Shown here: piece by piece, positions 6,361 through 10,485 of the stretch
Numbering within the stretch: the first letter of the stretch is position 1
Layout: each line of letters opens with the position of its first letter
Assembly (NCBI GenBank): GCA_049512935.1
Contig: JBEKWR010000002.1
Span: forward strand, 1-64,000
Length of the DNA stretch: 64,000 nucleotides
Direction of reading: 5' to 3'
Source of the DNA: Candidatus Bathyarchaeia archaeon
GTDB lineage: Archaea; Thermoproteota; Bathyarchaeia; Bathyarchaeales; Bathycorpusculaceae
Notes under the pieces: generated by a model
What the model saw: only the letters and a program-made list of their open reading frames with translations
Database searches by the model: none
What the model was told of the DNA's origin: nothing
Made by a program: the position numbers and the translations under genes

Positions 6361-7392
6361 ATGGCAGAAGAAGTTTGGGTTCCGATGGATGGCGACACCT
6401 TTGTGACGAAAGACGGGTTCATCCTGAACACTTTCGGCTACGAGCATCCAGACGATCGCGTGTTCGCGTTTCTCAAGTACATCCCAGCCAAGTACAGGGA
6501 GCTATTCAACGTGCAGATGCTGGAGCGCACATGGAAGTTCGGCGGCAACCAGCTTTTCAGGGCTGAGCGGCTTTACACGGCGAAGAATTACCAGACGTTC
6601 ATCGAGGCTTTCCGCAGAAACTTCCCAGACTACCTTTACTTCTGCCCCTACCGCAGCAAGGAACTAATCACGGCGCCGCTGGATCGCATAGAGCGGGTGT
6701 TCGTTCCCAAAGACCGCTTGGTGTGGCTGATGAACCTGCCTAAACGCGACAAGCTGCAGCAGATGGCGCTTGACCTCATCATTTTAATCTCCAACGAGTC
6801 AGGCGTGGACCTAAGCGACCTGGGGGTTCACGGCTCCATCGCGCTGCAGATGCATGCGCCCGAATCCGACATTGACTTCGTCGTTTACGGCACCGAAAAC
6901 TTCCGCATGGTAGAAGAAGCAATAGCGAGGCTTGTCAACGCTGGAAAACTCAGCTACATCGTGGGCAACCGCATCGAAGCCGCAAGAAAATTCCAAGGCA
7001 GGTACCAGGGAAAAATCTTCATGTACAACGCCACCAAAAAACCTGGGCAAATCAAGGAAAAATATGGCGCTTACCGCTACGTTCCGCTTGACCCCGTGAG
7101 GTTCGAAGCCATCGTCAGCGACGACGCGGAAACCATGTACCGCCCTGCAACCTACGGGATTTCAGGCTACAAGCCTCTGGATGGCCAGTCTGAACTTGAA
7201 CTGGACAAGATACCTGTTCAGGTTGTTTCCAATATTGGGCTTTACAGAAACGTTGCCCGATGCGGCAGCACGATCAGGGTGTCTGGCAAACTTGAACGGG
7301 TCGAATCCACATCGTCCAGCCAAGTTTATTATCAAGTTGTTGTGGGGACAGCTACGTCAGAGGAAGAATACATTTGGCCAGTGACAACGTAG
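6361..7392 (+). CDS. Predicted nucleotidyltransferase, COG1665-like (paralogue 1)
   Basis: GVHGS...SDIDFVVYG Pol-beta motif; N-terminal DGD..VT.DG.I...FGYEHP domain. ATG at 6361. Confidence 0.85.
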
Positions 7393-8450
7393 GGTTACGG
7401 GACCGCGACGCCATCGAAACCGCTGAAGGCTTAATCTTCCGCGTCTTCGGCTACTCGCATCCGCCAGGCGCCTACATCTGCGATGCAGAGTACGCTTCAG
7501 CAAAAATCTTCGACTCCAAAGACCCCAGGGCGCCGAGAACGGGCAAAGGGCAGCTTTACTACAAATTCTACAACGACGAAGGAATGAAACTCGTCGCGAA
7601 AAAATACCCGCAATACCAAGTTTTCCACGAAATGCTAGGGTTGAACCTCGTCGGAGTTAAAAACGGCTCGATCGCAGAGGCAAGGAAACCCGAGGTGCGG
7701 CTGCAGAAGCTGCTTGAGGCGGGGCCGACAGATGACTTGCTGGCGGCTATGGAACGAGTCCTCATGATATCGCTCAACAATTCAGGCTTGAAAACGGAGA
7801 ACTTCGGCGTCTTCGGCTCCATGCTGCATGGGTTTCATCACCCAAAGTTTTCCGACATAGACCTGATAGTTTACGGCAAAAAAGAGAACGCCACAATGAG
7901 AAAAACACTCCAAGCCTTGTACGCAGACAGCCAGTCTGGTTTTCATAACGAGTTCGAATCCGACCAAGCCATGGAGGGCAAGGATTGGCGTTTCAAAAAC
8001 TTCACGGTTGAAGACTTCGTTTGGCATCAGCGCCGAAAGCAGATTTACGGGTTGTACGACGATAAGGCAAGCGGGCGAACCATTAAAGCCGAGTTTGAAC
8101 CCGTGAAGGCTTGGGGCGAAATCGAATCTGAATACGACCCGCAAACACGCATTAAGCAGAAGGGCTGGGTGAAGCTTAAAGCCCGAGTTACAGCCGACGA
8201 CGAAGCGCCTTTTATCCCGTCGATCTACGGCATCGAACCCCTGGAAGTCTTAGGCGGCGCAAAAGAAGCAGCCCAGGCACGGCGGGTTTTCTCGTTCATG
8301 GAAGAGTTCCGTCAGCAAGCGCAAAGAGACGAAGAAATTATTGTGGAGGGTAACTTGGAAGAGGTTGTGTCGCCAAAGGAAAGCTTTCATCAGGTTACGT
8401 TGACTTATTGCCCGCGCTACTACGAGCAAGTCCTCGAAGTGCAACATTAA
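7374..8450 (+). CDS. Predicted nucleotidyltransferase, COG1665-like (paralogue 2)
   Basis: [24 protein letters not shown]...SDIDLIVYG. Overlaps the paralogue 1 stop. Confidence 0.85.
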
Positions 8451-9466
8451 GCTCGGGAAAGAACCATGTAATCCGACGGCTTGTTCCCAAGGATTAAACG
8501 GTAGTGTTCGCTGCCTGTTTTTTTGTTGGTGACCAGTTCAACTTTTCCCTGAGCCTCAACCGCCTCGCCGTTCGCTGCTTGCTCGCAGAACCTGCCGCGG
8601 AACGAAACAATCTCAGCTATTGGCTGCAACTTGGGTCCCTCAACAACATTGACTTCTTCCAGTTTGTAGACACAGGGCGTGAAAAGCGATTCGGTGCTGT
8701 CGGCTATTTTGGCGGTTACTTTTGCGTAGCCGCTGTTCTTGAAGCACACGTCTCCGTACTGCTCGTCGATTTCGCGCCAATCTTTCACGAAGCGGACGAA
8801 GTAGTCGGTGCCCATGAACTTGCCTTGGAACGCCTTGCGGCTTTCGACCAGAACGAAGTCTTCGAAGCTCATTTGCGTATCCTTCGAACGAAAAGCGAAA
8901 AGCTCCCGCAGTTCGGCTCGGCTGTAAGGCTTAAACCCCGATTTTTCATCCTTGAATAGCGTCTGCAACGCAGCGTAAGCCTTCCTGCAGTTCTCTGCCC
9001 CGTAAACCAGCGGGTCGATGTCTGACTTCTCCGTTGTCAGTCCTGCCATTATGGAGCCAGAGATGCCTATGCAGCTCCATGGAGTTTTTGCTTCCGCCTT
9101 CAACGTTTCTGCCAGCTTTAGCGCCTTATTCTCCAGCACTGTCAGGCCTTTGGCTGTGCGCAGAGACCAAAGCTTCTCTTCGGGTTTGTAGTGCTCAGCA
9201 ATTTGGGAAACTGGGACCTCACACATCGTTTCGCCGAACACAGGGTCAAAAACGATGAGGTCAGGGTGGTTTTCCCGCAGGTACCTGAACCTGTCGCCGA
9301 GGCTGTAGACCTTGCCGTAGAGGCTGTCTTTGCCTTTTCTCGTGCCTTCTGGCGAGGGAACGAAACGTGGAAAAGCGATGATTTTGCCTGCTGGATGGAC
9401 TAAGCCTTTAACGTCAAAAACCACGCCGCTTTTCGTTTTGATTAAGTCGCCTTCACGTGCTCTCAA
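8447..9466 (-). CDS. Predicted nucleotidyltransferase, COG1665-like (paralogue 3)
   Basis: REGD.IKT..G.VFDVKGLVHP; GISGS...SDIDPLVYG; SFRGRFCEQA. TTG start at 9466 is likely. Confidence 0.85.
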   Translation of the reverse strand: MRAREGDLIKTKSGVVFDVKGLVHPAGKIIAFPRFVPSPEGTRKGKDSLYGKVYSLGDRFRYLRENHPDLIVFDPVFGETMCEVPVSQIAEHYKPEEKLWSLRTAKGLTVLENKALKLAETLKAEAKTPWSCIGISGSIMAGLTTEKSDIDPLVYGAENCRKAYAALQTLFKDEKSGFKPYSRAELRELFAFRSKDTQMSFEDFVLVESRKAFQGKFMGTDYFVRFVKDWREIDEQYGDVCFKNSGYAKVTAKIADSTESLFTPCVYKLEEVNVVEGPKLQPIAEIVSFRGRFCEQAANGEAVEAQGKVELVTNKKTGSEHYRLILGNKPSDYMVLSRA

Positions 9467-9495
9467 ACAAACCACTGCTTGTAGTTTTCTGATAA

Positions 9496-9506
9496 GTTTA
9501 ATAAAC
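9496..9506. promoter_or_regulatory. Candidate bidirectional TATA box
   Basis: gtttaataaac lies midway in the ~70-bp gap between divergent NTase-3 and citG and reads TTTAATAA / TTTATTAA on the two strands. Confidence 0.45.
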
Positions 9507-9537
9507 CTTCTTTGCGACAATTATGTCGATGCGACTA

Positions 9538-10485
9538 ATGAATGACTGTGAAAAGGCCCAGCACATCTCCAAATGCTTGCAGCTCGCGATTCTTCTTGAA
9601 GTCAGCGCCGAAAAACCAGGCAACGTCAACTTAACCTCGAGTTTCGAGGGAACAACTTGCCAGCACTTCTTAGCTTCAGCCATCGCTGCAGGACCAAGTT
9701 TCCAAGAAGCCGCTTACCGCGGAACCCAGGTAACAGAAGGCAAACTGCCAGTCAACGACGTTGAATTGGGACAACTTATAAAATCCTGCGCCAAAGAAGT
9801 TAGCGATTGGCAGAACGGCGGGAACACGATTCTCGGCACCATAATGCTGTTGATGCCGATAGCCGTCGCAGCAGGAATGACGCCGACAGGGAAAGATGCC
9901 CAGATAGATTTTTCTCTTTTGCGCAGAAACATCGGCTTGGCGGTTAAAGGAACAACGGCTTGGGACTCAGTTCACCTTTACGAGGCAGTTGACATTGCCA
10001 GCCCAAGCGGGTTAAACAAGGCACCAGACCTCGACGTAACCGACTCTCAGTCCAAGGAGCGCCTGCTAAAAGAGAACGTTACCTTGTTTGAGGTTTTCCG
10101 GTTGGCGGCATCATACGACGATATCTGCGCAGAATGGGTCAACAATTACCCCGTAACCTTCGACTTAGCCTATCCGTACCTTGCGGAACAACTGAGAACT
10201 AAACCCTTGGACACCGCGGTCGTTCACACTTTCCTAAAAATCCTCTCAGAGCGTCCCGACACGTTCATTGCGCGAAAAGTCGGCAGGGAAAAAACGTTGG
10301 AAGTTTCAGCGGGTGCCAAGGCTGTTTTGGAACTCGGCGGGTTAGACACAGCGAATGGCAAAGAAAGCCTCAGGCGGTTTGACCGTAAACTGCGGTCAAC
10401 CCAGAACAAGTGCAATCCAGGAACCACTGCAGACTTAACAGCCGCCGCGCTGGCGCTCTGCACCCTAAATGGATACCGACCCTGA
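9538..10485 (+). CDS. citG: CitG-family triphosphoribosyl transferase (archaeal type)
   Basis: LEVSAEKPGNV, GNTILG and C-terminal NPGTTADL motifs. Confidence 0.9.
   Translation: MNDCEKAQHISKCLQLAILLEVSAEKPGNVNLTSSFEGTTCQHFLASAIAAGPSFQEAAYRGTQVTEGKLPVNDVELGQLIKSCAKEVSDWQNGGNTILGTIMLLMPIAVAAGMTPTGKDAQIDFSLLRRNIGLAVKGTTAWDSVHLYEAVDIASPSGLNKAPDLDVTDSQSKERLLKENVTLFEVFRLAASYDDICAEWVNNYPVTFDLAYPYLAEQLRTKPLDTAVVHTFLKILSERPDTFIARKVGREKTLEVSAGAKAVLELGGLDTANGKESLRRFDRKLRSTQNKCNPGTTADLTAAALALCTLNGYRP

What the first reader, a model, noticed from the sequence alone, without database searches (positions are those of the whole stretch)
6361..10485. Three COG1665-like nucleotidyltransferases clustered with citG: candidate CitG/CitX-like route to the methanopterin tail
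Seen: three divergent ~340-360-aa paralogues each keep an intact GxxGS...SDID motif. The third is head-to-head with a CitG-family gene across ~70 bp holding one TATA-like element readable on both strands, and mch lies 14 kb away. Known: CitG/MdcB transfer a triphosphoribosyl group from ATP to a hydroxyl acceptor, and CitX/MdcG then release PPi to form a phosphodiester. Archaeal-type CitG (Methylobacterium orf7 family) is linked to H4MPT biosynthesis, and methanopterin ends in alpha-ribose-5-phosphate esterified to 2-hydroxyglutarate. Inference: CitG makes a triphosphoribosyl-pterin and these NTases close the phosphodiester, with three paralogues adding different or successive tails. They could instead modify a protein or RNA. 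No citrate lyase or malonate decarboxylase ACP is visible in the window.
Basis: partly seen in the sequence, partly recalled or inferred. Interest (0 to 1): 0.8.

Follow-up and report, generated by a model that had tools for sequence, protein, structure and literature searches.

The report
Candidate missing methanopterin tail enzymes
Three related, uncharacterised nucleotidyltransferase genes sit beside a CitG-type gene in a Bathyarchaeia genome, and comparison with several hundred genomes ties this pair to making the C1 coenzyme methanopterin, so they are testable candidates for side-chain steps whose enzymes are still unknown.

Summary
The window has three intact Pol-beta-type nucleotidyltransferase (NTase) paralogues (A 6361-7392, B 7374-8450, C 8447-9466). 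C is divergent from a CitG-family gene (9538-10485) across 71 bp centred on a conserved TTTATTAA box. mch lies 13.6 kb away.

The link to methanopterin is strongly supported, although the window alone shows little of it.
- In 301 Thermoproteota genomes, 138 hold NTase and CitG, 11 NTase only, 3 CitG only, 149 neither.
- 143 of 150 genomes with mptG or mch hold the NTase, against 6 of 151 without.
- In other lineages the NTases and CitG sit inside mptA/mptD/mptE/mptH/mptG/DUF447 operons or next to mch.
- One relative is an HPPK-NTase fusion.

The proposed chemistry fits but is not shown: CitG makes a triphosphoribosyl intermediate and an NTase closes the phosphodiester. The NTases show no sequence relationship to CitX. 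No named classical methanogen appeared among the listed homologues. Full-length homologues sit on Streptomyces plasmids in an unrelated setting.

An unexpected lead: Bathyarchaeia that lack mptG keep mch, CitG and the NTases, and carry a transporter-like gene between CitG and C. This suggests precursor salvage.

I found no paper proposing this.

The parts
6361..7392 (+). NTase paralogue A (343 aa), Pol-beta-type nucleotidyltransferase of the uncharacterised family
   Evidence: ORF. PF01909 at 4.6e-4. GS...SDID motif invariant. Orthologues found in 70 of 80 Bathyarchaeia loci; 9 of the 10 misses are at contig ends. Long-branch clade of its own in the tree.
7374..8450 (+). NTase paralogue B (358 aa). 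Its TTG start overlaps the end of A by 19 nt.
   Evidence: 100%-coverage relatives of 356-359 aa. Found in 75 of 80 loci; missing between C and A in L070, L076 and L077.
8447..9466 (-). NTase paralogue C (339 aa from TTG 9466), the widespread 'type 1' form that usually neighbours CitG
   Evidence: 113 of the 150 best family representatives are closest to C. Type-1 clade has support 99/93. Start codon column conserved in 10 of 10 sequences.
9467..9537 (.). 71-bp divergent spacer with a central invariant TTTATTAA (9498-9505), a candidate shared TATA box for C and CitG
   Evidence: Sequence. Alignment of 10 loci. Promoter function is inferred, not tested.
9538..10485 (+). CitG-family gene (triphosphoribosyl-transferase fold family), archaeal type; the ORF is open from ATG 9523
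   Evidence: PF01874 at 1.5e-69 over 2-283 of 284. Far below the cut-offs of the bacterial CitG/MdcB equivalogs: 61 bits against 280. Only copy in the genome.
10539..11084 (+). 181-aa membrane protein of no known family, 54 bp downstream of CitG; membership of the module is uncertain
   Evidence: No Pfam or NCBIfam hit. A homologue lies within the same 21-kb neighbourhood in 7 of 80 loci, there on the A side.
24089..25084 (-). mch (methenyl-H4MPT cyclohydrolase). Shows that the organism uses a methanopterin-type cofactor; not part of the cluster.
   Evidence: PF02289 at 3.7e-108.

Best explanation
The CitG-type enzyme and the NTases form a two-step module that builds the ribose-phosphate end of a methanopterin-type cofactor.

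Step 1 (inferred). CitG transfers 5-triphospho-alpha-D-ribosyl from ATP, releasing adenine, onto a hydroxyl of the pterin-arylamine-ribitol intermediate.

Step 2 (inferred). An NTase treats that triphosphate like an NTP. It lets an acceptor hydroxyl attack the alpha-phosphate, releases pyrophosphate and leaves a phosphodiester. The acceptor is 2-hydroxyglutarate in canonical methanopterin and possibly another alcohol in these archaea. This is what CitX and MdcG do with the CitG/MdcB product.

The two old NTase types, and the extra A and B copies here, would use different acceptors, act in succession or work together.

Shown: gene content, co-occurrence, synteny and a gene fusion that tie both families to methanopterin biosynthesis and use. 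Inferred: both reactions, the substrates and the division of labour among paralogues.

My odds: about 0.8 that the NTases act in methanopterin-type cofactor biosynthesis or salvage, and about 0.5 that they perform the CitX-like closure on a CitG product. The confidence given is for the latter.
For: (1) Pairing with CitG. Of 301 Thermoproteota genomes, 138 hold NTase and CitG, 11 NTase only, 3 CitG only and 149 neither. Of the 30 families listed by name, 19 hold both, 8 hold neither and 3 disagree.

(2) Adjacency. CitG lies next to or near C in 78 of 80 Bathyarchaeia loci; the other two contigs end there. It is also adjacent in other families: f24, f30, f31, f33, f40 and f2 and f27.

(3) Link to methanopterin. 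143 of 150 genomes with mptG or mch hold the NTase, against 6 of 151 without. 134 of the 138 NTase+CitG genomes hold mptG or mch.

(4) Operons elsewhere.
- L119: radical-SAM HMPTM, NTase, NTase, CitG, DUF447, MptA, MptE, MptD.
- L124: NTase, NTase, CitG, DUF447, MptE, flavoprotein, DUF1464, PTPS, mptG, MptH.
- L125: mptG, DUF447, MptE, MptH, MptA, MptD, NTase, NTase.
- L126: mtd, fwd genes, mch, NTase.
- mch is followed by an NTase within 30 bp in G272 and within 1 kb in G278.

(5) Fusion. P0171 (505 aa) is HPPK (PF01288, 3e-40, residues 8-134) joined to a C-type NTase (residues 173-502).

(6) The pairing with CitG is tighter than with mptG and persists where mptG is missing: 36 genomes hold NTase and CitG without mptG, and 32 of them hold mch.

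(7) No citrate-lyase or malonate-decarboxylase ACP or CitX in the genome. The four archaeal control genomes with CitG also lack them.

(8) In methylotrophs the CitG-family gene (orf7) sits in mch islands: mch-orf5-orf7-fae in PMC3615186 (passages), and mch, glutamate ligase and triphosphoribosyl-dephospho-CoA synthase listed consecutively in PMC11533326 (passage).

(9) Chemistry, recalled and not from a call: methanopterin carries an alpha-ribofuranosyl 5-phosphate. CitG makes alpha-linked 5-triphosphoribosyl groups from ATP.
Against: - No sequence relationship to CitX. Pfam scans of 44 members at E<=1 gave no CitX or MdcG hit. hhalign against E. coli CitX gave probability 0.7%.
- No named classical methanogen, Archaeoglobus or haloarchaeon was among the best 120 hits listed in each of three searches. 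Yet M. jannaschii, M. acetivorans and H. volcanii have CitG, mptG and DUF447. If methanogens truly lack the family, it cannot be the universal hydroxyglutarate-attaching enzyme. These lists show only the best hits, so absence is not shown.
- Full-length family members (E 6.8e-47 to the profile) lie on 21 Streptomyces plasmids next to an APH-type kinase and a histidine phosphatase, without CitG or pterin genes.
- 11 genomes hold the NTase without CitG and 3 hold CitG without the NTase.
- A third catalytic carboxylate could not be placed from the alignments.
- White's cell-extract work, as I recall it and could not re-read, named PRPP as the ribosyl donor and an ATP-dependent hydroxyglutarate addition. 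That is not the scheme proposed here.
- Kin are not independent, so the 2x2 tables overstate the support.
Confidence: 0.5

Rival explanations
1. Same pathway, different chemistry. The NTases use an ordinary NTP to nucleotidylate a pathway intermediate or the incoming acid, an activation of the kind CofC performs in F420 synthesis (recalled). CitG only supplies the ribose phosphate.
For: The NTases are generic Pol-beta-type enzymes. The Streptomyces homologues work without CitG, beside a kinase and a phosphatase. 11 genomes hold the NTase without CitG. White's recalled scheme needs ATP at the hydroxyglutarate step.
Against: NTase presence follows CitG more closely than it follows mptG, and the genes are adjacent in many lineages. 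That pattern is expected for consecutive steps sharing an unusual intermediate.
Confidence: 0.2
2. The NTases act at another step of pterin cofactor metabolism that is unrelated to the CitG product, for example on the hydroxymethylpterin or arylamine part, or in regulation or repair of the cofactor.
For: The HPPK-NTase fusion links the family to the pterin half. An NTase-Peptidase_M20 fusion exists in G125. Type-2 NTases lie next to mch without CitG in L126, G272 and G278.
Against: mptG-less genomes that lack MptD and DUF447 (0 of 5 each) still keep the NTases with CitG. An early-step enzyme would be expected to be lost with the early steps.
Confidence: 0.15
3. The NTases attach a CitG-made prosthetic group to a protein, or modify RNA. 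The methanopterin association would then be indirect.
For: CitX and MdcG, the known partners of CitG/MdcB, modify a protein. The conserved N- and C-terminal domains of the family have no assigned function.
Against: No CitD/MdcC-type ACP or CitX in the genome. Operons with six different mpt genes. Fusion to HPPK. No RNA-modification genes recur in the neighbourhoods.
Confidence: 0.07
4. They are defence or toxin-antitoxin type minimal NTases that lie next to CitG by chance.
For: Marginal PADLOC hits for A and B (E about 1e-3, motif region only). A weak PDB hit to CdnC (E 0.4).
Against: They are 340-360 aa three-domain proteins conserved with CitG across many families. No HEPN or effector partner is present. 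C has no PADLOC hit.
Confidence: 0.01

Closest known systems
CitG/CitX of citrate lyase and MdcB/MdcG of malonate decarboxylase (for example E. coli citG-citX)
   Same: A CitG-family gene is paired with a second transferase gene, often adjacent. The proposed logic is the same: a triphosphoribosyl donor made from ATP, then attack by a hydroxyl with loss of PPi to give a phosphodiester (mechanism recalled).
   Different: The partner is not CitX or MdcG by sequence. No ACP, citrate lyase or CitX is present. The window's CitG matches E. coli CitG only over its last 60 residues by BLASTP and fails the equivalog cut-offs. The predicted acceptor is a small molecule, not a protein serine.
orf7 (CitG family) of the 'archaeal-like' C1 gene islands of methylotrophic bacteria
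   Same: A CitG-family gene stands next to mch and H4MPT-linked genes (PMC3615186 and PMC11533326, passages). This supports a methanopterin role for CitG-type enzymes.
   Different: Those bacteria make dephospho-H4MPT, which lacks the phosphate and the hydroxyglutarate (PMC8141765, passage). No NTase partner is described there. Several neighbours of orf7 (orf5, orfY, orf17) were reassigned to methylofuran synthesis (PMC8141765, abstract and passages), so island membership alone is weak evidence. The mutant paper (Chistoserdova 2005) was not held, so I recall it only.
Pol-beta-type nucleotidyltransferases (Pfam NTP_transf_2, PF01909)
   Same: The GS and DxD motifs are shared. 40 of 44 family members match PF01909 at E<=1, best 5.6e-9.
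   Different: These are about 350 aa with conserved N-terminal (H-P motif) and C-terminal domains that match no Pfam, NCBIfam or PDB sequence. No specific family model exists in the libraries searched.
CofC/CofD in coenzyme F420 synthesis (recalled)
   Same: A cofactor side chain is joined through a phosphodiester by means of an activated phosphate.
   Different: The protein families and the activating group differ. No relationship was tested here.

Membership tests
Pol-beta-type NTase superfamily (PF01909) | Match to the family model | tested here: met
   B scores 25.2 bits and A 21 bits against a cut-off of 21. C scores 14.5 bits, below the cut-off. 40 of 44 relatives match at E<=1.
Pol-beta-type NTase superfamily (PF01909) | hG[GS] and DxD catalytic motifs | tested here: met
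   G133, G136, S137, S147, D148 and D150 (numbering of C) are invariant in 44 sequences and in A, B and C.
Pol-beta-type NTase superfamily (PF01909) | Third catalytic carboxylate and the NTase fold | tested here: inconclusive
   No invariant acidic residue lies between D150 and P263.
CitX / MdcG holo-ACP synthases | Sequence similarity to PF03802 or to the MdcG model | tested here: not met
   Neither appears among the Pfam hits of 44 members at E<=1. hhalign against E. coli CitX gave probability 0.7%. MdcG itself was not compared by profile.
CitX / MdcG holo-ACP synthases | An ACP substrate (CitD/MdcC) encoded in the genome | tested here: not met
   PF06857 found in 0 of 1 genome (93% complete).
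CitX / MdcG holo-ACP synthases | Gene partnership with a CitG/MdcB-family gene | tested here: met
CitG / MdcB (PF01874) | Full-length match to the family model | tested here: met
   1.5e-69, positions 2-283 of 284.
CitG / MdcB (PF01874) | Equivalog of triphosphoribosyl-dephospho-CoA synthase | tested here: not met
   Best NCBIfam score is 61.2 bits against a cut-off of 280, and only the C-terminal third aligns. No citrate-lyase context.
Methanopterin biosynthesis gene set | Co-occurrence with mptG or mch | tested here: met
   143 of 150 genomes with a marker hold the NTase, against 6 of 151 without.
Methanopterin biosynthesis gene set | Synteny or fusion with known mpt genes | tested here: met
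   L119, L124, L125, L126, L127 and L129. HPPK fusion. Not met in the window itself: its mpt genes lie on contigs C6 and C29.
Methanopterin biosynthesis gene set | Presence in classical methanogens that make canonical H4MPT | tested here: inconclusive
   None named among the 120 best hits listed in each of three searches. Genomes outside Thermoproteota could not be reached with the genome search.
Methanopterin biosynthesis gene set | Demonstrated enzymatic step | not testable with these tools
   Needs biochemistry or genetics.
COG1665 | Assignment to that COG | not testable with these tools
   No COG library was available. A full-text search for 'COG1665' found 0 papers.

The most novel reading that the evidence does not exclude
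The CitG+NTase module, together with a transporter-like membrane protein encoded between CitG and NTase C, is a salvage and re-tailoring route. Many Bathyarchaeia have lost mptG, MptD and DUF447 yet keep mch. They would import a methanopterin fragment made by neighbours and rebuild or diversify its ribose-phosphate tail. Methanopterin would then be a cross-fed 'vitamin' in soils and sediments, and the paralogous NTases would set lineage-specific tails.
Probability: 0.2. Interest if true: 0.85.

Novelty: new variant of a known kind. Interest (0 to 1): 0.75.

Why it matters
Methanopterin is the C1 carrier of methanogenesis, anaerobic methane oxidation, the archaeal Wood-Ljungdahl pathway and bacterial formaldehyde oxidation. 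The enzymes that add its ribose phosphate and its terminal acid have not been assigned. Kaster et al. 2011 (PMC3087415, table passage) list three known methanopterin enzymes 'and estimated 7 unknown proteins'. My searches found no later assignment of these steps.

This locus and its relatives name two concrete candidate families and a mechanism that a few purified proteins and LC-MS could test.

If confirmed, three things would follow.
- It would be CitG/CitX-type chemistry used for a small-molecule cofactor.
- It would help close the pathway for engineering and for inhibitor design against methanogens.
- It would give genome-based markers that separate organisms making methanopterin from those that can only finish or salvage it.

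Tried and rejected

Searches that gave nothing useful
- No RNA holder was listed for window 6300-11100.
- PDB sequence searches with B alone and with the 44-sequence profile gave nothing significant.
- NCBIfam has no model for A, B or C.
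- PADLOC gave only marginal motif-level hits, so I rejected a defence reading.
The narrower C-type alignment A3 worked, but its best 80 of 276 relatives are all labelled Bathyarchaeia, apart from one labelled Acidiferrales. It gave no view outside that class.
- I could not obtain a genome handle outside Thermoproteota, so methanogens, haloarchaea and methylotrophs could not be searched with the NTase profile.
I sent 50 of the 80.

Papers and supplements
- Papers not held: Chistoserdova 2005 by DOI and by PMC id, Kalyuzhnaya 2005 and Maden 2000. What I say of them and of White 1996 is recalled.
- One paper search was badly framed and useless. One search found only mycobacterial mptD papers.
- Supplements were closed. 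Supplementary Text S1 of PMC8305020 and the supplementary tables of the methylotroph papers may bear on CitG/orf7.

Contexts with no recurring partner: the neighbourhoods of NTases in f13, f19, f20 and f36 and of CitG in f13 and f20.

Full report
**What is in the window**

The window is contig C2 of a 2.3-Mb, 93%-complete genome. Its proteins are closest to those named Candidatus Bathyarchaeia.

Between 6361 and 11084 the order is A (+), B (+), C (-), CitG (+) and a 181-aa membrane protein (+).
- A, B and C are 343, 358 and 339 aa and 25-26% identical to each other.
- They share G..GS and SDID motifs.
- B finds C at 2.5e-27 and A at 5e-10, and nothing else in the genome.
- A and B reach the Pfam NTP_transf_2 cut-off. 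C does not.
- None of the three matches an NCBIfam model or a solved structure by sequence.

The CitG gene is a full-length PF01874 member (1.5e-69). It scores far below the cut-offs of the true CitG/MdcB equivalogs. It resembles E. coli CitG only in its last 60 residues by BLASTP.

**The spacer**

Aligning the spacer with nine related loci fixes both starts. C starts at TTG 9466; a start codon stands in that column in 10 of 10 sequences. CitG starts at ATG 9538.

The 71-bp spacer has an invariant TTTATTAA at 9498-9505, about equally far from both starts. That it is a shared TATA box is my inference from the recalled archaeal consensus.

mch lies at 24089-25084. Unrelated genes lie between it and the cluster, including a 1326-aa protein with a KaiC-like domain and a 2336-aa beta-propeller protein.

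**The family**

A profile of A, B and C finds 1408 representatives at E<=0.001 among 1.84 billion proteins, 429 of them at 1e-30 or better. Of the best 150, 113 are closest to C, 24 to A and 13 to B.

A tree of 38 members shows two old groups.
- Type 1 is C-like, with support 99/93.
- Type 2 is the second copy in many lineages and the only copy in some.
- A and B are long branches beside type 1 (support 95/96).

Names attached to members are Bathyarchaeia, Methanomethylicia, Thermoprotei, Vulcanisaeta, Nitrososphaerales, Geothermarchaeales, Helarchaeota, Hodarchaeota, two MSBL1 single-cell genomes and one Chloroflexi-labelled bin. No classical methanogen, Archaeoglobus or haloarchaeon is named among the 120 best hits listed in each of the three searches. 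Only the best 120 are shown each time, so this does not show absence.

**Partnership with CitG**

In 80 Bathyarchaeia loci (53-82% identity to C), CitG lies beside or near C in 78. The other two contigs end there. B is present in 75 and A in 70, with nearly all misses at contig ends.

I searched 301 Thermoproteota genomes (the window's genome included) with the NTase profile at E<=1e-5 and with PF01874. 138 hold both, 11 the NTase only, 3 CitG only and 149 neither. Of the 30 families listed by name, 19 hold both, 8 neither and 3 disagree.

The genes are adjacent in Bathyarchaeia and also in families f24, f30, f31, f33, f40 and f27. They are apart in f13, f19, f20, f25 and f44. Related genomes are not independent samples, so these tables overstate the statistical weight.

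**Link to methanopterin**

mptG (TIGR00144 at E<=1e-20) is found in 108 of the 301 genomes and mch in 78.
- Of the 150 genomes with either marker, 143 hold the NTase and 137 hold CitG.
- Of the 151 with neither marker, 6 hold the NTase.

Gene neighbourhoods from 13 other families were fetched and scanned.
- In G248: radical-SAM HMPTM, DUF22, NTase, an unknown gene, NTase, CitG, DUF447, MptA, MptE, MptD and a flavoprotein.
- In G085: NTase, NTase, CitG, DUF447, MptE, flavoprotein/ferredoxin, DUF1464, PTPS, mptG and MptH.
- In G029: mptG, DUF447, MptE, MptH, MptA, MptD, NTase and NTase.
- In G130: mtd, fwd genes, mch and NTase, with CitG, a PfkB kinase and a second NTase 7 kb on.
- In G106 and G271, CitG sits with DUF447, MptA, mptG and MptE.
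- In G114, CitG abuts DUF447.
- In G272 and G278, an NTase follows mch.
- In the remaining loci (f13, f19, f20, f36) the neighbours are uninformative.

One representative, P0171, fuses HPPK to a C-type NTase. In G125 an NTase is fused to an M20 peptidase.

The window's own genome has its mpt genes elsewhere.
- Contig C6 114778-120432: PTPS, MptA, mptG, DUF1464, MptE, mptG.
- Contig C29: MptH and DUF447.

**What this does and does not show**

The association of both families with methanopterin-type cofactor metabolism is about as strong as comparative genomics can make it within one phylum. The mechanism is inference.

It rests on three things:
- the known chemistry of CitG and CitX/MdcG (recalled);
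- the alpha-ribofuranosyl 5-phosphate in methanopterin (recalled);
- the fact that the NTase follows CitG more closely than it follows mptG.

PMC8141765 (passage) confirms that dephospho-H4MPT of Methylorubrum lacks the phosphate and the alpha-hydroxyglutarate. It also confirms that MptN adds glutamate to the hydroxyglutarate.

The methylotroph islands place a CitG-family gene beside mch (PMC3615186 and PMC11533326, passages). However, PMC8141765 (abstract and passages) shows that orf5, orfY and orf17 of those islands serve methylofuran. Island membership is therefore only a hint.

**Evidence against, or limiting**
- The NTases are not detectably related to CitX.
- Methanogen members were not seen.
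- 21 Streptomyces plasmids carry full-length members (25-28% identity, E 6.8e-47 to the profile). There they sit in a cassette of histidine phosphatase, an unknown 382-aa protein, an APH-type kinase and the NTase. The fold therefore serves other small-molecule chemistry too.
- 14 of 152 genomes have only one partner.

**An unexpected pattern**

Thirty-six genomes hold NTase and CitG without mptG, and 32 of them hold mch.

I checked five such Bathyarchaeia genomes, 97-100% complete. Their best TIGR00144 hits are only 6e-6 to 3e-4. They have no MptD (0 of 5) and no DUF447 (0 of 5), but mch in 5 of 5.

In one of them (G013), a 332-aa membrane protein lies between CitG and C. It has a weak ECF riboflavin-transporter S-component match (PF07155, 2.6e-10).

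Among 78 Bathyarchaeia loci, 34 have more than 600 bp between CitG and C. About 31 of these hold a hydrophobic ORF of 250-335 aa on C's strand. These ORFs form one family.

I searched 50 of the 80 genomes for mptG.
- Genomes with this membrane gene: 0 of 26 have mptG.
- Genomes without it: 18 of 24 have mptG.

The completeness of these genomes is not given and they are kin. Even so, the pattern suggests that organisms unable to start methanopterin synthesis import a precursor and keep only the finishing module. The window's genome has mptG and lacks the membrane gene.

**Verdict**

Its central idea survives the test it proposed. The specific reaction remains to be shown, and 2-hydroxyglutarate as the acceptor is the least secure part.

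I found no paper that assigns these steps or names this family. Subscription papers and supplements were out of reach.

Noticed in passing
Relatives: L141:10934-11932 (G013); gaps between CitG and C in 34 of 78 loci, for example L034, L056, L062: A transporter-like membrane protein (weak ECF S-component match) is inserted between CitG and NTase C. It is found only in genomes without mptG: 0 of 26 with it have mptG, against 18 of 24 without it.
   Followed up: partly
P0171 (505 aa); L140:1850-4159 (G125): Two natural fusions of the NTase: HPPK-NTase, and NTase-Peptidase_M20.
   Followed up: partly
L143 and L144 (Streptomyces plasmids NZ_CP103061.1 and NZ_CP109318.1): Full-length members of the family lie on 21 Streptomyces plasmids. 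They sit in a conserved cassette of histidine phosphatase, an unknown 382-aa protein, an APH-type kinase and the NTase, with no CitG or pterin genes.
   Followed up: partly
Own genome C6:117500-118600; L118, L124, L129: DUF1464 recurs inside mpt clusters and next to CitG-NTase. Like DUF447, it is another candidate for an unassigned methanopterin step.
   Followed up: no
window 25184-25348 (+): A fragment matching the last 55 positions of the mch model lies just beside the intact mch gene. It has one in-frame TAA and is probably a remnant of a duplication.
   Followed up: no
G041:C18:9715-10731 and G057:C2:472422-473441: The type-1 NTase of two genomes of one genus carries a single in-frame TAG. 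This could be a pseudogene, an assembly error or a recoded stop.
   Followed up: no
window 11948-15928, 15985-16743 and 17004-24014: Three genes lie between the cluster and mch: a 1326-aa protein with a C-terminal KaiC-like ATPase domain, a separate KaiC-family gene, and a 2336-aa PQQ/beta-propeller repeat protein.
   Followed up: no
L041 and L048 (relatives): Paralogue A appears broken into pieces in two genomes that also lack mptG. B is missing between C and A in L070, L076 and L077. A and B therefore seem dispensable in some lineages.
   Followed up: no
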